Source: Escherichia phage vB_EcoM_I14.1
Reading direction: 5' to 3' (one strand)
Sequence record: PP892526.1
Length of the DNA: 64,000 nucleotides
Numbering within the stretch: the stretch's first letter is position 1; each line of letters starts with the position of its first letter. The position numbers and the translations under genes are program-made. Below are positions 55,691 through 64,000 of this stretch, one piece after another. The notes under the pieces were generated by a model, which was given only the letters and a program-made list of their open reading frames with translations, ran no database searches and was not told where the DNA came from.

Positions 55691-56476
55691 ATGGGTATTG
55701 TAAAAATCATCAATGGGGATATCTTCTCCGCATTTGATAAAGGTAAGTTTGATATCATTGGTCACGGTTGCAACTGTATGAACTTAATGGGTGCAGGTAT
55801 CGCTGCCAAGATTTCTAAACTTTACCCAAAAGCATATGAGACCGATACAGAAGTTTATCTGTATGCAGGTGGTATAGGCCACAAACCCTGTGAAAATTTA
55901 CTAGGTAATTTCTCTGTAGCACGTTTAGAACAAGGCCGTATAGCTAACCTTTACACTCAGCTTAAGACTGGTAAAGATGCCCGATACAGTGCTTTAGAGT
56001 CATCTTTGAAACAGCTTAACAGATACTGTGAAGTCAATCAGTTGAAGAAAGTTGGGTTACCTATGATTGGTGCAGGTATCGGTGGACTAGACCCTCAAGC
56101 CGTCGCAGTTATCATTAATCAGGTGATGAAGAGTGTAGATGTGTATCTGTATGTCTACGAAGGCGAGATGTACCACAAGTTACGCTCAGGTTGGAAGAAC
56201 TACTGTGAACCAGAATACTTTGCAGGTGTAGTAATGTTCACAGATGATACAGTTACCCTCTTCAGACGAAGAAAAGGTAAGATACATCAAAGTAACCCTC
56301 CGGTTGAGAAGATGTCTCTAAGTAACGCTCTAGTTACCCACCTGTCGAAGAGCAATCACAGAATTGCAGTAACATTTGGCAGTGATGCAGATACATATAT
56401 CTATGCAAGAACTGATGAGGATGTTGAGGAAATTTTCTCTTCACCGGAAGTTACCTTCTTAGACGCAAAGAACTAA
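55691..56476 (+). CDS. macrodomain protein (TARG1/DarG-like ADP-ribose hydrolase candidate)
   Basis: N-terminus VKIINGDIFSAF...FDIIGHGCNCMNLMGAGIAAKI resembles recalled TARG1/OARD1 signature (CISEDCRMGAGIA). Confidence 0.5.
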   Translation: MGIVKIINGDIFSAFDKGKFDIIGHGCNCMNLMGAGIAAKISKLYPKAYETDTEVYLYAGGIGHKPCENLLGNFSVARLEQGRIANLYTQLKTGKDARYSALESSLKQLNRYCEVNQLKKVGLPMIGAGIGGLDPQAVAVIINQVMKSVDVYLYVYEGEMYHKLRSGWKNYCEPEYFAGVVMFTDDTVTLFRRRKGKIHQSNPPVEKMSLSNALVTHLSKSNHRIAVTFGSDADTYIYARTDEDVEEIFSSPEVTFLDAKN

Positions 56477-56539
56477 GAAACTCTGTAGAATATTCACAAT
56501 AGACTAAGCCTTTCTTATCTGGTAAATTTTTCAGGTAAG

Positions 56540-56760
56540 GAGGGCTTTTTCATTTCAGGATTGTGCAGGCAGAGTTCTGTAGAGAAATCTGTAGAGAAAA
56601 TTTTGAACTCCAAAGAGAAAATTCATTTTCAAACTGTGCAGGTAATCTCCAAAGAGCTTTTTCATTTTCAAAACGTGCAGACCCCGCTCAGGTCGGGCAA
56701 GAAAAATCATTTTAGAATTGTGCAGGTAGGTGGGTGCAGGTGGGGATGTCGCCATTTCTC
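56540..56760. repeat. cluster of 4-5 direct repeats with core (t)TCATTTtCA(a)a(a)TGTGCAGG
   Basis: Copies near 56548, 56620, 56662, 56705, plus gtgcagg again at 56735; ORF-free, upstream of first early promoter. Confidence 0.5.
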
Positions 56761-56904: not shown

Positions 56905-56993
56905 TTGACTCTCTGACTATGGTTATTTAATATTTGCATCAACGGGGGGCGATGACCTCCCAGCTAACTAACCTTAAACTAGGAGATTCAAAA
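56905..56993 (+). promoter_or_regulatory. early promoter plus conserved leader hairpin and RBS (cassette 1)
   Basis: TTGACT-N17-TAATAT, then aacggggggcgatgacctccc hairpin, then ccttaaactaggagattcaaaaATG. Confidence 0.55.
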
Positions 56994-57374
56994 ATGGCTT
57001 ATCGTGCACCTAAATTCATCAACAAAGACAACTTTCGCAACGTACTGGAGAAGGCACTTGATGAAAAATTTAACGGTAAAATAATTGTTGTTCATGCGTT
57101 CAATTTCAAGTATGATATCAACGGGAATAAAATCAACCATTACACGGCAACCATGTTAGATGGTACGCTATCAAGTGAAAAAGCCGTACTGAATGCACTG
57201 GCAGGACGTGGTAAAAACCTGATAAAATGCGATAAGAGACGTTATCAGGGCGGCGCATATGGTTACGATGATGCTGTTTACCATCTTGAAAATATGGGCT
57301 ATTCAGTGGAAAAAGCTGGAATATCTCAAATAATCGGCAGTGACGGCTATGTGACAATTTTCAAAATTAACTGA
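56994..57374 (+). CDS. early small protein, hypothetical
   Basis: ATG behind conserved ccttaaactaggagattcaaaaATG; promoter 56905-56933 upstream (ORF track 56934). Confidence 0.45.
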   Translation: MAYRAPKFINKDNFRNVLEKALDEKFNGKIIVVHAFNFKYDINGNKINHYTATMLDGTLSSEKAVLNALAGRGKNLIKCDKRRYQGGAYGYDDAVYHLENMGYSVEKAGISQIIGSDGYVTIFKIN

Positions 57375-57376
57375 TA

Positions 57377-57462
57377 AAGTACTTTACAAGGGGCTTATAG
57401 TTCGATAAAGTAAGCCCCAGATAAAGAGCTTTACCACTAAATCCTAAATTGGAGATTCTAAA
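57377..57462 (+). promoter_or_regulatory. intergenic stem-loop + RBS cassette (hairpin type)
   Basis: gtactttacaaggggcttatagttcgataaagtaagccccagataaagagcttta ... ggagattctaaaATG. Confidence 0.5.
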
Positions 57463-57720
57463 ATGGCTATTATCAAAAACGTTGTAATTACTGCAAAAAC
57501 TCGTGATGACGCTCGCATTATGGCTAAAAAGTTATGCGGGAAAGTGATTGACAACGGAAAAAAATCTGCTGTAAGATGGGGCGTGAAAGCTGATAAGCAA
57601 CTAACCTTAAAACGTAATTCAAGCAACCTTTTTAAAGGTGTGGAAACACTTGGTAAAGTGAACGTATTCACTAAGCAAGGTTATAAAATGCACTTATCAT
57701 TAACTGGTAAATTAATCTGA
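57463..57720 (+). CDS. early small basic protein, hypothetical
   Basis: Conserved hairpin-RBS cassette upstream; Lys/Arg-rich 85 aa. Confidence 0.45.
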   Translation: MAIIKNVVITAKTRDDARIMAKKLCGKVIDNGKKSAVRWGVKADKQLTLKRNSSNLFKGVETLGKVNVFTKQGYKMHLSLTGKLI

Positions 57721-57810
57721 TAAAGTACTTTACAAGGGGCTTAAAAGCTGATATCTTAAGCCCCAGATAAAGAGCTTTACTACATTAACCTTAAACTAGG
57801 AGATTCAAAA
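57721..57810 (+). promoter_or_regulatory. intergenic stem-loop + RBS cassette (hairpin type)
   Basis: Same framework; stem ggggcttaa...ttaagcccc with different loop. Confidence 0.5.
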
Positions 57811-58323
57811 ATGAAAACTGTAGACGCTACCTTTGAAGTTGTAAAAGAAAAATTTTCCATCATTTACGAAGCTGTTAACTGCTACGAAGCAAGCCATAGC
57901 CTTGATAATTGGAAATTTACAGATAATCATCAAGGTGGCGTGACTATTAAAAACCCCAACTATCGTTATAATGCTTTTAAATATGCAATCCCTTTACATT
58001 ACAGCCTTAAACAGCTTTCGAGTGACTATGCAAAACAAGGCCGGGAAAACCCTTCAAAAGAGGCTTATATCAGCTTACAAAGAGAACTAGAAAGGGATTT
58101 AGAGGCTTCAGCATATAATATTGCCGCGAAAGTTGTGGATGCAAACGGTAAAACGGTTTTAGAAAGTTTTTATACTGGTTACGCTTTTGATTGGGCATAC
58201 AGTGACGGCGAAGATTTAGAGGATAGACTAAAAGAGGAGGTGAGCAATTCAGGCGCAGAATCTGAAGTATTAGAACGCTTGGAAGCATTAAAAGATTCAG
58301 TGATGAATATCTTTAAGAACTAA
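57811..58323 (+). CDS. early protein, hypothetical
   Basis: Conserved hairpin-RBS cassette upstream. Confidence 0.45.
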   Translation: MKTVDATFEVVKEKFSIIYEAVNCYEASHSLDNWKFTDNHQGGVTIKNPNYRYNAFKYAIPLHYSLKQLSSDYAKQGRENPSKEAYISLQRELERDLEASAYNIAAKVVDANGKTVLESFYTGYAFDWAYSDGEDLEDRLKEEVSNSGAESEVLERLEALKDSVMNIFKN

Positions 58324-58412
58324 ATAGATTTCTTTACACGGGGCTATCAAGCTGATAAGATAGCCCCAGATAAAGAGCTTTATTAACTAACCTTAAACTA
58401 GGAGACTCAAAA
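58324..58412 (+). promoter_or_regulatory. intergenic stem-loop + RBS cassette (hairpin type)
   Basis: Stem ggggctatc...gatagcccc (compensatory change), then agataaagagcttta and RBS. Confidence 0.5.
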
Positions 58413-58709
58413 ATGAAATTATCAAATAAAGTTAGGGAAAATCTAAGCAAGTTACTCAACAAAATTGATTTTATCGAGACATCAAGGAATAGTCATGATG
58501 TTATGGAATGGTTACACGGAAAAATCAAAGGCCGTCGTGTAGTGATTTGCTTATGGAATAGTTGCAGGGAATATAAAAAACCTGTATTACAAGTCAATAT
58601 CTATGATGATACTTTTAAAAGCCATGTAAAGTCTAAAAGTGATTTATTAGAATCCTATGAGATAACTGTAAATGGCAAAGTATCACGTAAAGAGGAAACA
58701 CCATGTTAA
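58413..58709 (+). CDS. early small protein, hypothetical
   Basis: Conserved hairpin-RBS cassette upstream. Confidence 0.45.
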   Translation: MKLSNKVRENLSKLLNKIDFIETSRNSHDVMEWLHGKIKGRRVVICLWNSCREYKKPVLQVNIYDDTFKSHVKSKSDLLESYEITVNGKVSRKEETPC

Positions 58710-59035
58710 TGACTGGTATCACTGCAATCATTGCCATTTTCGCGCTATATAAGGCATATAAAGCCTATAATCTAGCAAATAAGGCAATCACACAGCAGGT
58801 TAGCAATAGCCTTGTAGAAAGCTTTCTAGGGCGTCTCAGTGATGAGCAAATAAAGCGGTTAGAAATGAGCTTCAGATTTCAATCGAGAACTTATCAAATC
58901 AGCGACATTTTCAAAGATGATTTTCAGCTTGTCGATGATTATAACTCCCTGATAAATGCTTTAAATATCAGTGACTTAAAAGACTATTACGCTGTAATTG
59001 TCCAAGAATTGAGCAAACGAAAAAATTTATCTTGA
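58703..59035 (+). CDS. early membrane-anchored protein, hypothetical
   Basis: N-terminal hydrophobic helix ITAIIAIFALY; overlaps previous stop. Confidence 0.4.
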   Translation: MLMTGITAIIAIFALYKAYKAYNLANKAITQQVSNSLVESFLGRLSDEQIKRLEMSFRFQSRTYQISDIFKDDFQLVDDYNSLINALNISDLKDYYAVIVQELSKRKNLS

Positions 59036-59126
59036 TTTTGGTTTTTAAAACAAGTAAATTACTAATCAACGGGGAGGGAATGACCTTCCCCCACTAAATA
59101 AAGTCCTTAAACTAGGAGATTCAAAA
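59032..59126 (+). promoter_or_regulatory. early promoter plus conserved leader hairpin and RBS
   Basis: TTGATT-N17-TAAATT, aatcaacggggagggaatgaccttccccc, ccttaaactaggagattcaaaaATG. Confidence 0.55.
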
Positions 59127-59399
59127 ATGTATACTACTAACAATGGTCGCACTTTAAACGTAACCCTGCGCCACTATGTGAACGGTGTAATGCACTTCGA
59201 GGATTTACAAGCTGAACAACATATACTAGATTGGCAACTTGCAGGACTCCAAAAAACTGCTACCGGATACGGGAAAAAGATTCCAACTAGCTGGAAAGTA
59301 TACTACGAAGGACGTTTGCGCAGAATTTATCAAGATGTATGCAGCAATAGCGCATCAAGTTACATCATGGTAAAAGGTGAAAAATTACACTTAGCATAA
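59127..59399 (+). CDS. early small protein, hypothetical
   Basis: Promoter-leader cassette upstream (59032-59126). Confidence 0.45.
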   Translation: MYTTNNGRTLNVTLRHYVNGVMHFEDLQAEQHILDWQLAGLQKTATGYGKKIPTSWKVYYEGRLRRIYQDVCSNSASSYIMVKGEKLHLA

Positions 59400-59484
59400 A
59401 GTACTTTACAAGGGGCTTATAGTTCGATAAAGTAAGCCCCAGATAAAGAGCTTTATCACTCAATCCTAAATTGGAGATTCTAAA
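59400..59484 (+). promoter_or_regulatory. intergenic stem-loop + RBS cassette (hairpin type)
   Basis: Near-identical to 57377-57462. Confidence 0.5.
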
Positions 59485-59889
59485 ATGGCTATTAATAATC
59501 GTGAGTTATCAATCTTAAAAGCACGTTTGACCGTTAACCGGATTAATGTTATTACATCATCAGCACCTGATGAGACATTGCACAACATTATCGGGAAGAT
59601 TCAAAGTGTTATCTTAGACGTTGAAAGCGTAAAAAACTCACTGGCTGACGTTGCAGCAGGTATCACGCTAGACGGTGCACAATATGAAATGGCTGACATG
59701 TTAGGCAAATCTAAGGTAATGAATAAAGAGCTTGATTTAAAAATGTTCCGCTTTGCCGTGAAAGTGTGGCTATCTGTCGAGTATGACGCAAATTTTGCAA
59801 TCGCTGACTTTTTCGCAACATGGTTGCAACGTAATTTAACAAATCATGATTTTCGTGATATCTGCGACGTAATTTACGCAGAACTTTAA
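59485..59889 (+). CDS. early protein, hypothetical
   Basis: Hairpin-RBS cassette upstream. Confidence 0.45.
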   Translation: MAINNRELSILKARLTVNRINVITSSAPDETLHNIIGKIQSVILDVESVKNSLADVAAGITLDGAQYEMADMLGKSKVMNKELDLKMFRFAVKVWLSVEYDANFAIADFFATWLQRNLTNHDFRDICDVIYAEL

Positions 59890-59898
59890 AAATTTCTC

Positions 59899-59992
59899 TT
59901 GATTTTGGTTTTTAAAACAAGTAAATTATTAATCAACGGGGAGGGAATGACCTTCCCCACTAAGTAAAGTCCTTAAACTAGGAGATTCAAAA
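59899..59992 (+). promoter_or_regulatory. early promoter plus conserved leader hairpin and RBS
   Basis: TTGATT-N17-TAAATT plus leader; ~95% identical to 59032-59126. Confidence 0.55.
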
Positions 59993-60196
59993 ATGGCTAT
60001 TATTAACGGCTTAAACATTGAAACTACTCACATCAAAGATATCAAAGTTGGTGATATAGTCCTTTTTCACGGCGTAGAAAAAACCGTCACTGAAAAGGAT
60101 ATCAAGGAGGATTCATTCATGGGCCGGACTCTCTTCGGTGATTCCTATTGCTTAGGTTACCTTGCAGTTTTAAAAGTTGTCAAAAATAACCGTTAA
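59993..60196 (+). CDS. early small protein, hypothetical
   Basis: Promoter-leader cassette upstream (59899-59992). Confidence 0.45.
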   Translation: MAIINGLNIETTHIKDIKVGDIVLFHGVEKTVTEKDIKEDSFMGRTLFGDSYCLGYLAVLKVVKNNR

Positions 60197-60282
60197 AGTA
60201 CTTTACAAGGGGCTTATAGTTCGATAAAGTAAGCCCCAGATAAAGAGCTTTACCACATTAATCCTAAACTGGAGATTCAAAA
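60197..60282 (+). promoter_or_regulatory. intergenic stem-loop + RBS cassette (hairpin type)
   Basis: Near-identical to 57377-57462. Confidence 0.5.
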
Positions 60283-60825
60283 ATGAAATGCTTTCACGGT
60301 ACTACTCAAGAAAACTTCGTCAACCTGATTAATAACGGTGATAAACCATCAGGCGCATGGAATTGTTCGGATATGGATGGCAATTTTTACGTTTATCCAG
60401 AAAATAAAATCTATGGCGACGATGAGGAAGAAATAATCTCTGAAGGCATTCAACAAGCTTTAGGTAATGCCACTATAACGGCAGCTTTTCAGATGAAAAC
60501 TCAAAACATTGTTATCTTGGAACTTGATATTCCAGAAGATGAGTTGAATGATGATTATTCTTGTGATAATATGTCGAGTGTGGCAAGTTTTACAGAGTAT
60601 TTTGATATAAGCTGGATTAAAAAGGTTTATATCACTGAATTTAATGCTATGTTTTCACCTTTTTGTCTTCCTTCACTGGATAACCCGAACTTAAACTATC
60701 TTGATGAGTCTCTGGAACTTCTCGCTAAAAGTGTTCAGCAATCGGACAGTATTCAGGTTTTTTGTGACATCATGGATACACTAACAGGAAACATTGCAGA
60801 AGAGGATTTGAAGAGTTTTTTCTAA
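60283..60825 (+). CDS. early acidic protein, hypothetical (N-terminal FHGT motif)
   Basis: Hairpin-RBS cassette upstream; FHGT at residues 4-7; acidic. Confidence 0.4.
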   Translation: MKCFHGTTQENFVNLINNGDKPSGAWNCSDMDGNFYVYPENKIYGDDEEEIISEGIQQALGNATITAAFQMKTQNIVILELDIPEDELNDDYSCDNMSSVASFTEYFDISWIKKVYITEFNAMFSPFCLPSLDNPNLNYLDESLELLAKSVQQSDSIQVFCDIMDTLTGNIAEEDLKSFF

Positions 60826-60851
60826 AAACCTATGCAATCACCTTATAAACA

Positions 60852-60878
60852 CTGATTAGCCCCTCACAGGGGCTTTTA
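60852..60878 (+). terminator. hairpin terminator candidate inside early array
   Basis: agcccctc-aca-ggggct followed by ttta. Confidence 0.4.
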
Positions 60879-60891
60879 GGAGGCTTTAATC

Positions 60892-61125
60892 ATGCTTACA
60901 ACCATTTACCTCATCCTTTCTATCTGTAATGGTCATTCGTGTGACTTTAAAGGGCTTGAAGAGTTTACAGGAAGTAAAGAAAATGCTATTCAAGTGTGCC
61001 AGATAGCAAGGCAAGACTATCCCGCCAGTGATGATATACAATGTTACTTTAAGACAGAAGATGAAGACGGTGTCTATTTTGACAGCGTAGACGGTCAATA
61101 TGAAATTATCATTGAAAAAGACTAG
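60892..61125 (+). CDS. early small protein with hydrophobic N-terminus
   Basis: RBS aggagg; terminator-like hairpin upstream. Confidence 0.35.
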   Translation: MLTTIYLILSICNGHSCDFKGLEEFTGSKENAIQVCQIARQDYPASDDIQCYFKTEDEDGVYFDSVDGQYEIIIEKD

Positions 61126-61214
61126 ACAAGCCTGATAAAAGTCTGTAAATTGTCAATCAACGGGAGGTAATAACCTCCCCACTAAGTAAAGTCCTTAAAC
61201 TAGGAGATTCAAAA
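61124..61214 (+). promoter_or_regulatory. early promoter (weaker -35) plus conserved leader hairpin and RBS
   Basis: TAGACA-N17-TAAATT, gtcaatcaacgggaggtaataacctcccc leader. Confidence 0.45.
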
Positions 61215-61556
61215 ATGGCTTATGTAACCGTAATTACCGACAAAGCTGGCTCATCTTGGTCAACTCAAGTAAGCGATAAGATGTCACCTATGAAGTGCCT
61301 AAAATACTTTGAGCAATGGAACAAAGGCGAGGATGTCAGCCCCTTTCAAGTGATGCAGATTATCCATACAGATAACGAAGGGAATAAAACTGTTTTGAAT
61401 AGTGAGTACTACGCAACCCGATTTGAAACGAGATGTAAAGCAATGAAGCTTTTGCGTGAGTCTGGTTATTCTCATATTGCCTCACTAATCTGGGATGACC
61501 TGCTAAAAAATCAGCGTATCAGCTATGTAAAACCTGAAAAAATATTCATCAGTTAA
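61215..61556 (+). CDS. early small protein, hypothetical
   Basis: Promoter-leader cassette upstream. Confidence 0.45.
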   Translation: MAYVTVITDKAGSSWSTQVSDKMSPMKCLKYFEQWNKGEDVSPFQVMQIIHTDNEGNKTVLNSEYYATRFETRCKAMKLLRESGYSHIASLIWDDLLKNQRISYVKPEKIFIS

Positions 61557-61685
61557 TCAACAACTTACAAAAAACTTTTAAAAAGATGTTGACAATCCCT
61601 CTTGACATTGGTAACTTTGTTCGAGGGGGTTTATCTAAAAGGGATTAACTTAAAAGATTCTTTATAGATAAACTTAAAAAATTGC

Positions 61686-61780
61686 TTGCAATCAACTATC
61701 AAAACAAGTAAATTACTAATCAACGGGAGGGATAACCCCCCCCCCACTAAATAAAGTCCTTAAACTAGGAGATTCAAAAA
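61686..61780 (+). promoter_or_regulatory. early promoter plus leader containing a C10 homopolymer
   Basis: TTGCAA-N17-TAAATT; leader gggagggataacccccccccc with C-run at 61736-61745. Confidence 0.5.
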
Positions 61781-62311
61781 ATGAACAAGTTCAAAGCTAT
61801 CAACTTCATTCGTTCAAATAGTGTTATGTCAAAGCCTGTTAAAGATACCTATGAATTTCGTTGCAATGGGGTGCATTTTGCAACCATTACCAAATCAGAA
61901 AACGGAGCTTATTACATCCATCGCCGTAATGTTGCAACCGTTGTTGTCTCTCACTTTATGCAAGCTGTCGCGGAACTTCTCCCGATGTTTTTAGGGCTTT
62001 ACTTGGATGAGTGTAAAAACGTTCACAATCACGTTAAAAACCTTTTAAACAGTTATAAAATGGCTTATGAACGTTCTATCAAGTCCTTAAACAAGTTTTA
62101 CAACGCACCTAAAAATACTGTATCAATGGCCTACGATGTAAATGGTGAGGCGGTGAGTCTCTTTGAAGTGGAAGAAATCAAGCTGCATGATTTACGCCCT
62201 AGCGGTGACTCTAAGACTCTCGGTGAAGGTTTAACGTTCAATATCAAGAACTTAGAGAAAACTTTAAAAGATATTGAAAAAGATATTGACGAGACAACCA
62301 AAAATCTGTAA
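61781..62311 (+). CDS. early protein, hypothetical
   Basis: Promoter-leader cassette upstream (61686-61780). Confidence 0.45.
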   Translation: MNKFKAINFIRSNSVMSKPVKDTYEFRCNGVHFATITKSENGAYYIHRRNVATVVVSHFMQAVAELLPMFLGLYLDECKNVHNHVKNLLNSYKMAYERSIKSLNKFYNAPKNTVSMAYDVNGEAVSLFEVEEIKLHDLRPSGDSKTLGEGLTFNIKNLEKTLKDIEKDIDETTKNL

Positions 62312-62376
62312 ATTGTCAATCAACGGGAGGGAATGACCTTCCCCACTAAGTAAAGTCCTAAACTGGAGTTATCAAG
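62296..62376 (+). promoter_or_regulatory. early promoter plus conserved leader hairpin and RBS
   Basis: TTGACG-N17-TAAATT, gtcaatcaacgggagggaatgaccttcccc. Confidence 0.5.
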
Positions 62377-62640
62377 ATGGAAAACGTAGAATTAACCGCA
62401 CTATTGCAGATTGCAACTGATAAAGAGGATGTAGCACTGTTCCACCGCATTGAAAGCGATTTGTTCAATGGTGAAATCATTAAAGAATCTTACGAAGTTG
62501 TCGGATTCAAAGATGGTAAATCATTTGGATTCTTTGACCTCGACAAAGGCAAAGCGGTTACAAAATATGATGTTTTATCTTGTGAGATTCTGACAAAATA
62601 CAACGAAAAAAGGCTTGCAACATACGACAACATGCAGTAA
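62377..62640 (+). CDS. early small protein, hypothetical
   Basis: Promoter-leader cassette upstream (variant RBS ctggagttatcaag). Confidence 0.4.
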   Translation: MENVELTALLQIATDKEDVALFHRIESDLFNGEIIKESYEVVGFKDGKSFGFFDLDKGKAVTKYDVLSCEILTKYNEKRLATYDNMQ

Positions 62641-62706
62641 ATTACTAATCAACGGGGAGGGATAACCTCCCCACTAAGTAAAGTCCTTAAACTAGGAGAT
62701 TCAAAA
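62641..62706 (+). promoter_or_regulatory. conserved leader hairpin and RBS (promoter -35 weak)
   Basis: taaattactaatcaacggggagggataacctcccc ... ccttaaactaggagattcaaaaATG. Confidence 0.45.
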
Positions 62707-62955
62707 ATGGCAACTATCCGCGCAACTGTCAATGCTTATGGCTGTTATACTCTGGACGTTAAATTTGATATTGGTGGAACTGATGAGTGTTTTTCATTAG
62801 TGAAGACAGTTATCAAGCAAGTTATCCCAGATTATAACCCTACTGATGACTTCTGGAAAGATGCTGTAAAAGAGGCATTAAACGACGAGCATCACTATCA
62901 TTACTGGGGTGACTTGATTATCTCACTGTACTACAATAAACAAGGTTACAACTAA
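62707..62955 (+). CDS. early small protein, hypothetical
   Basis: Leader cassette upstream; last ORF before strong terminator. Confidence 0.45.
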   Translation: MATIRATVNAYGCYTLDVKFDIGGTDECFSLVKTVIKQVIPDYNPTDDFWKDAVKEALNDEHHYHYWGDLIISLYYNKQGYN

Positions 62956-62961
62956 TCGCCG

Positions 62962-63017
62962 CAACGGGGCTAAATAGCCCCAGATACCTTCACAGCCCCA
63001 TTTAAGGGGCTTTTTTA
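62962..63017 (+). terminator. tandem hairpins with T-run; strong intrinsic terminator closing the early array
   Basis: ggggct-aaat-agcccc, then agcccc-attta-aggggct followed by TTTTTT. Confidence 0.65.
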
Positions 63018-63019
63018 CG

Positions 63020-64000
63020 TCTATGTAATAGCCTCTATACAATCCCTTTCCTTTCCTTTCCAGAATCTTACTAGACCTTAAAAGCAATAACTCTATAGTC
63101 TACTCTATAATCTCTTATCAAATCAACTTAAATAAAAGCCCATAACCCGAAAGGGAAGGGTAACCGTTTAAACGCTCTATAAAGCTCTATAACAGCCTTA
63201 TCAACCTAACTTAAGGGATTGCATTAACTCACCCTAAAAAGCCCTTTATAAAGCTTCCTAGAGCCTTAAAAGAATCTTATAAGGGTGTAAGCTTTATTAT
63301 CTCGTTAGTTCCTTGTGAATAACTAGAAAGGGCTTGTTAGTGTCTTAAAAGTATGTTATAGGGGCTATAAAGTTACTTCAAAGTTACGTAAAAGTGGTTT
63401 AAAAGTTACGTAAATGCTAGCCCCCTTAACATTTTCTTAACAATTTCTTAACAACCCCTACATAGTTATGCTTGTTAGCAACTTGTTAGCCCCTTGTTAA
63501 ATCTCTGTTAAAACCACGTAAAAGCCTTGTAAGAGTCTTTAGCATAGCCTTTAAAGCCCCTGTAAAGCCCTATAAATAGCTTTCTGTATAGTTGGGGTGT
63601 AATTACTAGGGAGAGACTAAAAAGAGCTTATAAGGAGCTATAGAAAGCTTTTAAGAGGGCTATTTAAAAGGTCACTAAGAAAGGAAAGGGAACGATAAGA
63701 AAAGAGATAGTGACCATGTTAATAGCTTGTTAAAAAGATTAAACACTTGTTAGGAACTTGTTAATTATCTTAACAAAATAACTCTTTAAAATTAACTTGT
63801 TAGCTCTTGTTAGTCATCTGTTAAGATTCTATAAAGACCATGTAGCAACTGTTAAGAAACTGTTACACCCTTGTTAGTTCTGTTAAGAATCTGTTAAGAC
63901 CTCTGAAGAGATGTTAAGAGGTTGTAAGAACTGTTAAGAGATTGTTAAGGATATTTTAAAATTCTGCAAAGGGGATGTTACAGGGATGTTAAGGGCTACC
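63020..64000. repeat. ORF-free, repeat-dense non-coding region (ctctata, acgtaaa and TGTTA word families)
   Basis: No ORF of 60 aa or more on either strand; ctctata x5, aaagttacgtaaa x2, 21 copies of TGTTA. Confidence 0.6.
63850..63995. repeat. helically phased TGTTA(A/G) iteron array
   Basis: TGTTA starts at 63850, 63861, 63872, 63881, 63892, 63912, 63932, 63943, 63976, 63987 (spacings 11, 11, 9, 11, 20, 20, 11, 33, 11), plus a tgtaag variant at 63923. Confidence 0.6.

What the first reader, a model, noticed from the sequence alone, without database searches (positions are those of the whole stretch)
56905..62960. Six-kb array of small orphan genes, each behind a near-identical promoter/leader-hairpin/RBS cassette
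Fourteen ORFs of 67-180 aa with no family I recognise are each preceded by one of two module types. Promoter type (seven copies): TTGAnn-N17-TAAATT, then the leader aatcaacggg(g)agg...cctcccc hairpin, then ccttaaactaggagattcaaaaATG. Hairpin type (five copies): gtactttacaaggggctta...taagccccagataaagagcttta, then the same RBS context. Regulatory modules are far more conserved than the genes they drive, which suggests modular cassette shuffling as described for promoter-early-stem-loop elements in T4-type phages. In phages such arrays commonly hold host-takeover and anti-defence genes, so this is the most likely place for undescribed functions.
Basis: partly seen in the sequence, partly recalled or inferred. 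Interest (0 to 1): 0.75.

Follow-up and report, generated by a model that had tools for sequence, protein, structure and literature searches.

The report
Promoter-hairpin gene cassettes in Felix-O1-like phage
A 6-kb stretch of a Felix O1-type phage genome holds 14 small genes of unknown function, 12 of them preceded by one of two repeated promoter-plus-hairpin units at which related phages gain, lose or swap these genes; T4-type phages have the same design ('PeSL' cassettes), so this is a new example of a known principle.

Summary
The window is a Felixounavirus, about 100% identical to phage vB_EcoM_D4. Positions 56905-62960 hold 14 ORFs of 67-180 aa, 7 'promoter-type' modules and 5 'hairpin-type' modules. 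These motifs occur nowhere else in the window or in a complete related genome.

The main correction concerns the hairpin-type module, which very probably is also a sigma-70 promoter. It has an invariant TTTACA, a 17-nt spacer and a TAnnnT hexamer in 147 of 148 distinct copies from three genera, and in all four copies of a fourth genus. The T and A of that hexamer lie in the hairpin loop, and the three middle bases vary almost freely. Both module types therefore fit the PeSL design described for T4-type phages: promoter, G-run/C-run stem-loop and ribosome-binding site, filling the gap from stop codon to ATG.

Sixteen arrays from three genera are collinear but differ by whole cassettes. Every gain or loss junction retains exactly one intact module. 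Only 35 of 258 relatives cover at least 80% of the array, against 210-244 of about 275 for control segments.

All 14 proteins are function-unknown PHROGs. One (60283-60825) has an ADP-ribosyltransferase fold.

Verdict: a PeSL-like hyperplastic early region, a new member of a known kind. Promoter and hairpin activities are inferred, not measured.

The parts
56506..56556 (+). Intrinsic terminator ending the upstream unit (Felix O1 't13'). Left boundary of the array region.
   Evidence: 17-pair stem followed by a T run. The same sequence is listed as t13 in PMC3185647.
56905..56993 (+). P-type module 1. -35 TTGACT 56905-10, -10 TAATAT 56928-33, ATCAAC 56938-43, leader hairpin 56944-61, ribosome-binding site, then the g1 ATG.
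56994..57374 (+). g1, 126 aa, phrog_4495, function unknown.
57372..57462 (+). H-type module 1. Three-part hairpin 57372-57436 containing the g1 stop codon. Embedded -35 TTTACA 57383-88 and -10 TAAAGT 57406-11. Predicted +1 at A57419. Ribosome-binding site.
57463..57720 (+). g2, 85 aa, phrog_5089, function unknown. Two alleles exist among relatives (85 and 97 aa).
57721..57810 (+). H-type module 2. Hairpin 57721-57779, -35 57729-34, -10 TATCTT 57752-57 preceded by TG.
57811..58323 (+). g3, 170 aa, phrog_4190, function unknown. Absent from VpaE1.
58323..58412 (+). H-type module 3, a variant with compensating changes in both stems. Hairpin 58323-58384, -35 58333-38, -10 TAAGAT 58356-61 preceded by TG.
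58413..58709 (+). g4, 98 aa, phrog_4401, function unknown.
58703..59035 (+). g5, 110 aa, phrog_4375. Overlaps g4 by 7 nt and has no module of its own. Hydrophobic N-terminus.
   Evidence: The g4-g5 overlap of -7 is seen in all 36 adjacencies.
59032..59126 (+). P-type module 2. -35 TTGATT (contains the g5 stop codon), -10 TAAATT 59055-60, ATCAAC 59065-70, hairpin 59071-91.
59127..59399 (+). g6, 90 aa, phrog_3436, function unknown.
59396..59484 (+). H-type module 4. 98% identical over 99 nt to module H1. -35 59405-10, -10 TAAAGT 59428-33.
59485..59889 (+). g7, 134 aa, phrog_4327, function unknown.
59899..59992 (+). P-type module 3. -35 TTGATT, -10 TAAATT 59922-27, ATCAAC 59932-37, hairpin 59938-58.
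59993..60196 (+). g8, 67 aa, phrog_3623, function unknown.
60192..60282 (+). H-type module 5. Hairpin 60192-60254, -35 60202-07, -10 TAAAGT 60225-30.
60283..60825 (+). g9, 180 aa, phrog_3303. ADP-ribosyltransferase-fold protein, homologue of Bas63 gp107. Conserved positions H5-G6-T7, W26, S29, Y36, D91, S93, N96, M97.
60858..60891 (+). Terminator-like hairpin AGCCCCT-CAC-AGGGGCT followed by TTTT, then the SD AGGAGG of g10. This is neither a P nor an H module.
   Evidence: The g9->g10 junction is 61-67 nt and carries no module in all 35 adjacencies.
60892..61125 (+). g10, 77 aa, phrog_4640. N-terminal hydrophobic segment followed by Cys.
61123..61214 (+). P-type module 4. -35 TAGACA (its TAG is the g10 stop codon), -10 TAAATT 61146-51, ATCAAC 61156-61, hairpin 61162-79.
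61215..61556 (+). g11, 113 aa, phrog_4318, function unknown.
61589..61617 (+). Extra promoter-like site TTGACA-N17-TAACTT in the 224-nt g11-g12 spacer. Some relatives have a small ORF of 41-46 aa here.
61686..61780 (+). P-type module 5. -35 TTGCAA, -10 TAAATT 61709-14, ATCAAC 61719-24, hairpin 61725-45 whose 3' arm is a poly-C run.
61781..62311 (+). g12, 176 aa, phrog_4725, function unknown.
62286..62376 (+). P-type module 6. The -35 TTGACG and the spacer lie inside the 3' end of g12. The -10 TAAATT 62309-14 begins with the g12 stop codon. Hairpin 62325-43. Variant ribosome-binding site.
62377..62640 (+). g13, 87 aa, phrog_7022. Absent from many relatives (Bas63, Felix O1, UAB_Phi87 and others).
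62615..62706 (+). P-type module 7. The -35 TTGCAA lies inside g13. The -10 TAAATT 62638-43 begins with the g13 stop codon. Hairpin 62654-72.
62707..62955 (+). g14, 82 aa, phrog_4559. Two alleles about 70% identical in nucleotides circulate among relatives.
62994..63017 (+). Intrinsic terminator (Felix O1 't23'). Right boundary of the array.

Best explanation
The region is the single hyperplastic early-gene region of a Felix O1-like phage (subfamily Ounavirinae). Twelve of its 14 small genes sit behind a composite regulatory cassette that fills the whole gap from the upstream stop codon to the ATG. Each cassette combines a host-type (sigma-70) promoter, a G-run/C-run stem-loop and a near-identical strong ribosome-binding site.

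There are two sequence families.
- P type: the stem-loop follows the -10 and the invariant ATCAAC. It would therefore sit at the very 5' end of the module's own transcript, as a likely stabilising 5' hairpin, and inside any read-through RNA.
- H type: the promoter (TTTACA-N17-TAnnnT) is embedded in a 60-nt three-part hairpin that includes the upstream stop codon. Transcripts started there, predicted at the A of CCCC-AGATAAAG, lack the 5' arm and would be unstructured. Read-through RNA from upstream would fold the hairpin, which would then attenuate, terminate, process or 3'-protect that RNA.

Each gene is thus insulated and expressed on its own by host RNA polymerase soon after infection.

The cassettes offer about 60-100 nt of shared sequence. 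Homologous recombination between them deletes, inserts or replaces whole genes in register, always leaving one working cassette. This explains the cassette-wise differences between related phages.

Shown here: the anatomy, its conservation across genera, the hairpin pairing pattern, the junction pattern and the plasticity. Inferred: promoter activity, start sites, what the hairpins do, early timing and the recombination mechanism.
For: Anatomy and more than chance.

P-type promoter (155 distinct copies):
- -10 positions are T100 A100 A92 A87 T79 T100 (%).
- -35 positions are T98 T85 G97 (%).
- The spacer is 17 nt in about 150 of the 155 copies, across about 11 unrelated spacer families.
- An A-tract lies upstream, and ATCAAC is 98-100% invariant.

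H-type promoter:
- 147 of 148 distinct copies have TAnnnT 16-18 nt after TTTACA (138 at exactly 17).
- Columns 24, 25 and 29 are 95% T, A, T. Columns 26-28 are only 52%, 32% and 33% conserved.
- G at the extended -10 position is present in 86% of copies.
- The generic scan found these sites independently.
- The signature persists in all four H copies of Erwinia phage phiEa104, whose loops differ.

Hairpins:
- Folding z-scores are -3.6 to -5.6.
- 94.3% of cells are paired, against 31-56% when the partner is slid. The covariation score is 0.139 against 0.073, reached by 0 of 500 shuffles. Four pairs have compensatory changes, including GGGG/CCCC to GGTG/CACC in phiEa104.
- G-U wobbles occur on the + strand.
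- The stem-loop position relative to the promoter differs between genera, as among the PeSL subclasses.

Cassette dynamics:
- The arrays are collinear with whole-cassette gaps.
- At least 12 distinct non-canonical junction types each carry exactly one complete module of normal length.
- Sub-variants of the ribosome-binding site, the -10 and the leader hairpin segregate at almost every slot.
- One gene family occupies two different slots.

Plasticity: 35 of 258 relatives cover at least 80% of the array, against 244 of 275 and 210 of 276 for control segments.

Confinement: the motifs occur only in the array of a complete 85.8-kb genome, only on contigs of 51-94 kb (most of them 84-94 kb, the size of an Ounavirinae genome) in IMG/VR, and at chance level in 185,579 bacterial genomes.

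Literature:
- PeSL definition and mechanism: PMC2839356.
- Felix O1 has no RNA polymerase of its own, and genes 16, 20, 21 and 22 of this array peak at 5 min (PMC3185647).
Against: - No start-site, termination or reporter data exist for any Ounavirinae phage (searches found none).
- Neither hairpin type is followed by a U-tract, and the terminator scan flags none of them. Termination is therefore not supported by sequence.
- TTTACA and the last T of the H-type -10 also belong to the stems, so part of the promoter signature is confounded with the hairpin.
- Exchange among copies can keep sequences alike without selection on each base.
- The Felix O1 RT-PCR is semi-quantitative and mixed: genes 14, 17, 19 and 23 of the array peak at 25 min.
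- Gene order is fixed across genera. True relocation of cassettes, and the mini-circles proposed for PeSLs, are barely evidenced.
- One allele swap examined at base level had one breakpoint at a module and the other inside the gene.
Confidence: 0.7

Rival explanations
1. Only the seven P-type modules are promoters. The H-type element is a promoterless intercistronic RNA hairpin inside polycistronic early mRNAs. It would act as an RNase III-type processing site or a 3'-end protective hairpin, like the sites that separate the early cistrons of phage T7.
For: - The hairpin is long and irregular: stems of 6, 5 and 9 bp, a 1x1 and a 3x3 internal loop, about -25 kcal/mol. From general knowledge, this resembles the shape of T7 RNase III sites.
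- Its pairing is supported by covariation and by + strand G-U wobbles.
- It lies exactly between cistrons and includes the upstream stop codon.
- This reading can coexist with promoter function.
Against: - It does not explain the 95% conserved T and A in the loop next to three freely varying bases.
- It does not explain the constant 17-nt distance from TTTACA while hairpin length changes.
- It does not explain the frequent TG of an extended -10.
- All of these persist in a phage whose flanking protein is only 35% identical.
- In Felix O1, gene 20 (behind an H module) peaks at 5 min while gene 19, directly upstream and behind a P module, peaks at 25 min. One shared transcript fits this poorly (weak evidence).
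- No Rfam family matches.
Confidence: 0.2
2. The inverted repeats act at the DNA level as operators for a dimeric phage or host repressor that switches the early promoters off. No RNA structure is involved.
For: In the H type, two nested inverted repeats overlap the predicted -35 and -10. This geometry is typical of operators. The 3' arm and the following bases (AGATAAAGAGCTTT) are invariant over four genera, which is more than pairing requires.
Against: - About a third to a half of the copies have U-G where others have C-G, and further G-U pairs occur. These keep RNA pairing on the + strand but break DNA dyad symmetry.
- Both arms change together in different ways (GC to UA). A protein site would not easily tolerate this.
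- P-type stems vary from 5 to 9 bp with different sequences.
- No candidate DNA-binding protein was found among the array proteins.
Confidence: 0.05
3. The repeats are relics of tandem gene duplication, or copies of a small mobile element of the MITE type, and have no regulatory role.
For: Many near-identical copies lie within a small region. Three H copies are 98-100% identical over 99 nt.
Against: - The genes between the copies are unrelated to one another.
- Every copy has the same orientation and sits in exact register from stop codon to ATG.
- The copies carry promoter hexamers and a ribosome-binding site at working distances.
- They are conserved in four genera.
- They occur nowhere else in the phage genome and only at chance level in bacterial genomes.
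Confidence: 0.03

Closest known systems
PeSL (promoter-early stem-loop) cassettes of T4-type phages (Arbiol et al. 2010, PMC2839356; Comeau et al. 2014, PMC4122927)
   Same: - A composite motif of about 100 nt runs from the upstream stop codon through an AT-rich stretch, a sigma-70-like -35 and -10 and a polyG/polyC stem-loop to the SD and ATG.
- The stem-loop lies between -35 and -10 or overlaps the -10 (as in the H type, and in the phiEa104 P type), or lies downstream of the -10 (as in the Felixounavirus P type).
- The motifs are concentrated in front of ORFans in a hyperplastic region.
- Indels between relatives leave a single chimeric motif.
   Different: - The phage lineage is different (Ounavirinae, about 88 kb, with no T4-like transcription factors reported).
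- No exact match of two module cores was found outside contigs of 51-94 kb; the T4-type motif sequences themselves were not compared.
- There are two discrete, highly uniform sequence families rather than a loose consensus.
- All copies lie in one 4-7-kb array rather than in many regions.
- Gene order is collinear across genera.
- The stem-loops have no U-tract.
- No experimental proof exists of promoter or terminator activity, or of mini-circles.
RNase III processing sites between the early cistrons of phage T7 (general knowledge, not tested here)
   Same: Irregular hairpins of about 20 bp with an internal loop lie between small early genes transcribed by host RNA polymerase. If such a hairpin is cleaved, the upstream mRNA keeps a 3' hairpin.
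   Different: The T7 sites carry no promoter and follow three clustered promoters at the genome end. Here the hairpin encloses a promoter signature. Cleavage is untested and no Rfam model matches.
Host-takeover module of Bacillus phage SPO1 (general knowledge)
   Same: A compact block of many small early genes of unknown function, each or nearly each behind a very similar strong host-type promoter and strong ribosome-binding site.
   Different: The SPO1 module lies in the terminal redundancy. It is not described as having repeated stem-loops or as a site of cassette exchange.
5'-terminal stem-loop stabilisers of E. coli mRNAs such as the ompA leader (general knowledge)
   Same: In the P type the hairpin starts about 3-6 nt after the predicted start site. 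That is the geometry known to protect an mRNA from 5'-end-dependent decay.
   Different: The start site is only predicted. In phiEa104 the equivalent stem-loop lies upstream of ATCAAC, so 5' stabilisation cannot be the function common to all genera.
Phage ADP-ribosyltransferases (T4 Alt, ModA, ModB) and the RNA 2'-phosphotransferase Tpt1/KptA, compared with g9 only
   Different: There is no detectable sequence similarity to any Pfam ADP-ribosyltransferase family. The catalytic residues are not assigned. Activity and target are unknown.

Membership tests
PeSL-type regulatory cassette | Sigma-70-like -35 and -10 at a working spacing, with an AT-rich stretch upstream | tested here: met
   P type: T-A-n-n-n-T at 100/100/100%, TTG at 85-98%, a 17-nt spacer in about 150 of 155 copies, and an upstream A-tract. 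H type: TTTACA-N17-TAnnnT in 147 of 148 copies. This rests on sequence only.
PeSL-type regulatory cassette | A stable stem-loop with G and C tracts joined to the promoter, at a position that varies between subclasses | tested here: met
   The stem-loop lies downstream of the -10 (Felixounavirus P type), across the -35 to -10 region (H type), or around the -10 (phiEa104 P type).
PeSL-type regulatory cassette | The motif spans from the upstream stop codon to the SD and ATG of an ORFan | tested here: met
   Stop codons lie in the lower stem (H type), or inside the -35 or -10 hexamers (four of the seven P-type modules). Every module ends at a shared ribosome-binding site and ATG.
PeSL-type regulatory cassette | Concentrated in hyperplastic regions, with indels between relatives bounded by the motifs and leaving one motif | tested here: met
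   (at least 12 junction types, each with one module). (35 of 258 against 210-244 of about 275 records with at least 80% coverage).
PeSL-type regulatory cassette | Promoter strength and terminator or attenuator activity demonstrated experimentally | not testable with these tools
   No transcript-end or reporter data were found for any Ounavirinae phage. The hairpins have no U-tract.
PeSL-type regulatory cassette | Excised mini-circles formed by recombination between flanking motifs | not testable with these tools
   This needs outward-facing PCR or read-level data.
PeSL-type regulatory cassette | Belongs to T4-type phages, or is homologous in sequence to their motifs | tested here: not met
   The host genome is a Felixounavirus. 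Exact matches to the two module cores that were scanned occur only on contigs of 51-94 kb, most of them 84-94 kb. PeSL is a functional class, so this weakens the claim of common descent, not the claim of a common design.
Intrinsic (Rho-independent) terminator | A GC-rich stem directly followed by a U-tract | tested here: not met
   The scan flags only 56506-56547 and 62994-63011, which flank the array, among + strand intergenic sites. No P or H hairpin is flagged. The 60858-60877 hairpin before g10 has only four T.
Known RNA families (Rfam 15) | A match to any covariance model | tested here: not met
   The only match is a chance-level miRNA hit, E 0.37, below its gathering score.
RNase III processing site (T7-type) | An irregular hairpin of about 20 bp with an internal loop between cistrons, cleaved by RNase III | tested here: inconclusive
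   The shape is met. Cleavage cannot be tested.
ADP-ribosyltransferase superfamily (g9 only) | The ADP-ribosyltransferase fold | tested here: met
ADP-ribosyltransferase superfamily (g9 only) | A catalytic motif (H-Y-E or R-S-E) and NAD+-dependent activity | tested here: inconclusive
   H5-G6-T7, S29 and Y36 are invariant or nearly so in 74 diverse homologues. The acidic catalytic residue is not assigned. There is no Pfam match and no biochemistry.

The most novel reading that the evidence does not exclude
The H-type element is one sequence with two roles. As DNA it is a promoter. As read-through RNA it is a 60-nt hairpin. Its 3' arm and start region (CCAGATAAAGAGCTTT) are invariant across four genera that have diverged to about 35% protein identity. 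That invariance would mean a dedicated phage or host factor reads this sequence and co-ordinately shuts off or processes all early cassettes. This would be a regulatory layer not described for PeSLs.
Probability: 0.15. Interest if true: 0.65.

Novelty: new member of a known kind. Interest (0 to 1): 0.42.

Why it matters
- It extends the PeSL principle beyond T4-type phages to the Felix O1 group, which is widely used for Salmonella and E. coli typing and biocontrol. In that principle, repeated promoter/stem-loop cassettes both express accessory genes and serve as in-register recombination points. The design therefore looks like a general solution for keeping an exchangeable accessory 'toolbox'.
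- It gives about 250 sequenced genomes a map of their most variable region, and a testable list of 12 predicted start sites per genome.
- The Felix O1 genome paper noted direct repeats here and left them unexplained. This reading accounts for them.
- It points to a natural plug-in site for engineering, with ready-made promoter and ribosome-binding units.
- It flags one cassette as an ADP-ribosyltransferase-fold protein, from a family of several hundred sequence clusters that has no Pfam family.

Tried and rejected
- Rfam search of the region: nothing above chance.
- Intrinsic terminators: no module hairpin qualifies.
- Pfam on all 14 proteins: nothing reaches its threshold. PHROGs: all function unknown.
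- 'Modules evolve more slowly than genes': rejected. Orthologous intergenic identity is about the same as gene identity.
- g6 and g8 as paralogues, suggested by loose clustering: rejected. There is no alignment between them.
- A bacterial or MITE-like origin: 4 single 20-mer hits in 596 Gb, with no similarity to the window. That is chance level.
- T4 MotA-box reading of the H module: GTGCTTTACA in Mooglevirus, Suspvirus and phiEa104 contains TGCTTTA, but it lies 19 nt from the -10, not about 12 as I recall for T4 middle promoters. The Felix O1 paper also reports no polymerase-modifying factors. Treated as coincidence.
- The first structure model of g9, from 14 close homologues, was poor (pLDDT 60.5). 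It was replaced by a model from 74 diverse homologues.
- Profile search of g9 against PDB sequences: no significant hit.
- Literature searches for Ounavirinae transcriptomics or start-site maps: none found.
- Base-level breakpoint mapping was done for one allele swap only. A genome-wide breakpoint test was not attempted.

Full report
**Identity and context.** The 6.3-kb region matches 258 phage records, nearly all Felixounavirus (Felix O1-like myoviruses of Escherichia, Salmonella, Shigella and Citrobacter). It is 100% identical to Escherichia phage vB_EcoM_D4 except for a 76-bp duplication at a poly-C run in that record. It corresponds to Felix O1 genes 14-23, between the terminators that the Felix O1 paper calls t13 and t23 (PMC3185647). 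Here these lie at 56506-56556 and 62994-63017. A Macro-domain 'phosphatase' gene lies directly upstream.

**Checking the observation.**
- Fourteen + strand ORFs of 67-180 aa are present at the stated places.
- Seven modules have a -35 hexamer, a 17-nt spacer, TAAATT (TAATAT once), four variable bases, ATCAAC, a G-run/C-run hairpin and the ribosome-binding site.
- Five modules have the long hairpin GGGGCTTA...TAAGCCCCAGATAAAGAGCTTTA followed by the same ribosome-binding context.
- The motif cores are far beyond chance, with 8 and 5 copies against 0.00 and 0.01 expected. They occur only here in the 64-kb window, all on one strand.
- In a complete 85.8-kb relative they likewise occur only in this array.
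- Exact-match scans of IMG/VR found them only on contigs of 51-94 kb, most of them 84-94 kb.
- A scan of 185,579 bacterial and archaeal genomes gave four single hits with no other similarity to the window. That is about what chance predicts.
- Two genes lack a module. g5 overlaps g4 by 7 nt. g10 follows a terminator-like hairpin at 60858-60877.

**The promoter-type module.** In 155 distinct copies from three genera, the -10 is T100 A100 A92 A87 T79 T100 (%) and the -35 is T98 T85 G97 (%).
- The spacer is 17 nt in about 150 of 155 copies, although the spacers fall into about 11 unrelated sequence families.
- An A-tract lies upstream, and ATCAAC is 98-100% invariant.
- Conserved hexamers and spacing without a conserved spacer is the signature of a working sigma-70 promoter.
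- In four of the seven copies here, the stop codon of the upstream gene lies inside the -35 or the -10. In two of those (the modules before g13 and g14), the -35 and spacer also lie within the 3' end of the upstream coding sequence.
- By the usual rule of a start 7-8 nt after the -10 at a pyrimidine-purine step, the start is predicted at the CA of ATCAAC. That would put the hairpin 3-6 nt from the 5' end, a geometry known to protect E. coli mRNAs. This step is inference.
- The hairpin keeps its structure while its sequence and length vary, with 5-9 bp stems such as GGGGAGG/CCTCCCC and GGGGC/GCCCC.

**The hairpin-type module, re-read.** The RNA folds into a 60-nt three-part hairpin. It has stems of 6, 5 and 9 bp, a 1x1 and a 3x3 internal loop, about -25 kcal/mol, and z-scores of -3.6 to -5.6. 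The upstream stop codon lies in its lower stem.
- The pairing is supported by moderate covariation. On 24 diverse copies, 94.3% of cells pair, against 31-56% when the partner is slid. The covariation score is 0.139 against 0.073, reached by 0 of 500 shuffles.
- Four pairs show compensatory change, including GGGG/CCCC to GGTG/CACC in all four copies of Erwinia phage phiEa104.
- Frequent G-U pairs point to + strand RNA rather than to a symmetrical protein site.
- No U-tract follows the hairpin.

The generic promoter scan flagged TTTACA-N17-TAAAGT, TATCTT or TAAGAT inside every copy.
- Across 148 distinct copies, 147 have TAnnnT 16-18 nt after the invariant TTTACA, and 138 have it at exactly 17.
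- Counting from the -35, positions 24, 25 and 29 are 95% T, A, T. Positions 26-28 are only 52%, 32% and 33% conserved. G at the extended -10 position is 86% conserved.
- The T and A lie in the hairpin loop, so the hairpin cannot explain them. The 17-nt spacing holds even where the hairpin is one base shorter.
- The pattern persists in phiEa104, whose loops differ and whose g9 homologue is only about 35% identical.

I conclude that the H module is a promoter overlaid by a stem-loop, and I put this at about 70%. Its own transcripts would start at the A of CCCC-AGATAAAG and would lack the 5' arm.

**Comparison with PeSLs.** Arbiol et al. defined PeSLs in the T4-type phages phi1 and RB49 as motifs of about 100 nt. 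They run from the upstream stop codon through an AT-rich stretch, a sigma-70 promoter and a polyG/polyC stem-loop to the SD and ATG. The stem-loop lies between or over the hexamers, upstream of the -35 or downstream of the -10. The motifs are concentrated before ORFans in hyperplastic regions, and recombination between them deletes or inserts genes.
- Both module types here fit that description.
- In phiEa104 the P-type stem-loop (GAGGGG-ttaaaat-CCCCTC) wraps the -10 and precedes ATCAAC.
- The stem-loop therefore moves relative to the promoter between genera, as among the PeSL subclasses. Its common role is more likely on read-through RNA than as a 5' stabiliser.

**Cassette dynamics.** I mapped 16 arrays: 12 Felixounavirus including the window, two Suspvirus and two Mooglevirus.
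- Gene order is collinear, and the module type in front of each gene is conserved.
- Genomes differ by whole cassettes: g3 is missing in VpaE1; g1, g2, g8-g10 and g13 in Felix O1; g1-g8 in LF82P3; g11 and g12 in KhF3.
- With the IMG/VR loci added, at least 12 distinct non-canonical junctions each carry exactly one complete module of normal length.
- Where unlike types meet, the module of the first deleted gene remains. This fits a crossover in the shared ribosome-binding segment.
- Sub-variants (CCTTAAACTAGGAG against CCTAAACTGGAG, the -10 variants, the leader-hairpin variants) segregate at nearly every slot. That requires exchange among paralogous copies.
- Divergent alleles about 70% identical (g2, g14 and others) sit in backgrounds that are otherwise 90-95% identical.
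- In the one swap read at base level, one breakpoint lay at the module and the other inside the gene.
- One family, with members 40% identical, occupies two different slots in different genomes.
- The array is hyperplastic. Only 35 of 258 relatives cover at least 80% of it and 2 reach 95% identity. Two control segments of equal length give 244 of 275 and 210 of 276 for coverage, and 134 and 98 for identity.
- Orthologous intergenic regions are no better conserved than the genes (86.7% against 88.3%; 70% against 70%).

**The proteins.** None reaches a Pfam threshold. All 14 are function-unknown PHROGs.
- g9 (60283-60825) belongs to a large family: 324 clusters at 50% identity, also present in Erwinia, Pseudomonas PAK_P1-like, Vibrio and Pectobacterium phages.
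- With a 74-sequence alignment its model reaches pLDDT 95.9.
- H5-G6-T7, W26, S29, Y36, D91 and S93 are conserved.
- This agrees with the PhageMaP preprint. It found the Bas63 homologue gp107 more important in strain S17-1 and noted a slight likeness to Tpt1 (PMC11482910).

**Timing.** Felix O1 encodes no RNA polymerase. Its RT-PCR placed array genes 16, 20, 21 and 22 at 5 min and genes 14, 17, 19 and 23 at 25 min. This is consistent with host-polymerase transcription but is not decisive.

**Prior knowledge.** The Felix O1 paper recorded the 57-bp and 39-bp direct repeats without interpreting them. One GenBank record (ASO1B) annotates P modules as a promoter followed by a terminator. I found no paper that describes the system.

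**Verdict.** This is a PeSL-like cassette array in a new phage lineage. It is real, well delimited and mechanistically readable. It belongs to a known kind, and its activities are still to be measured.

Noticed in passing
window 63010-64000 (runs off the window end): The non-coding stretch after the array terminator carries more than 20 copies of [CT]TGTTA[AG] / CTTAACA in both orientations, spaced 11, 20 and 31 nt (helical phase). In relatives this gap before the convergent genes is about 1.0-1.9 kb. The garuso and pinkbiff records mark repeat_regions here, and phiEa104 has 'TTCTAAAC' repeats at the same place. It looks like an iteron array (an origin or a protein-binding array).
   Followed up: partly
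window 56549-56730: Four direct repeats of about TTTTCATTTTCA-N3-4-GTGCAGG, spaced 74, 38 and 45 nt, lie between the upstream terminator and the first array promoter. The same motif occurs four times, spaced 37-39 nt, at the same place in Erwinia phage phiEa104 (L068 2051-2195). Function unknown.
   Followed up: partly
window 61725-61745; L001 7940-8060: The leader hairpin before g12 has a 10-C run in place of CCTCCCC. The GenBank record of vB_EcoM_D4 carries a 76-bp tandem duplication exactly there. A sequencing or assembly artefact at a homopolymer is likely.
   Followed up: partly
window 55691-56476: The gene annotated 'phosphatase' directly upstream of the array is a Macro-domain protein (PF01661, E 4e-8). 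The array contains an ADP-ribosyltransferase-fold protein (g9), so the two may form a writer/eraser pair.
   Followed up: no
window 58703-59035 and 60892-61125: g5 starts with a hydrophobic helix (MLMTGITAIIAIFALY...). g10 starts with a hydrophobic segment followed by Cys (MLTTIYLILSIC...). They may be a membrane protein and a secreted protein or lipoprotein. Not analysed further.
   Followed up: no
window g1, g2, g7, g8, g11, g14 start codons: Six of the 14 ORFs begin Met-Ala (MAY, MAI, MAT). In g2, g7 and g8 the identity of the module runs through the first 3-4 codons (ATGGCTATTA). The repeat unit therefore extends slightly into the coding sequence.
   Followed up: no
L016 about 1088-1150 (IMG/VR contig 2706796742): A ribosome-binding site and ATG run straight into the spacer of a P-type promoter (ATGTTTGGTTTTAAAAGCAAGTAAATT...), leaving a 4-codon mini-ORF. 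This looks like the scar of a cassette deletion with an off-register crossover.
   Followed up: no
L059 (Citrobacter phage Michonne) 7091-7778: The g2 cassette is present twice in tandem, separated by a 172-nt spacer that contains an H module. This is a cassette duplication.
   Followed up: no
H modules of Mooglevirus, Suspvirus and phiEa104 (e.g. L068 3514-3530): The sequence GTGCTTTACA contains TGCTTTA, the consensus of the T4 MotA box. It lies 19 nt from the -10 rather than about 12. Treated as coincidence.
   Followed up: partly
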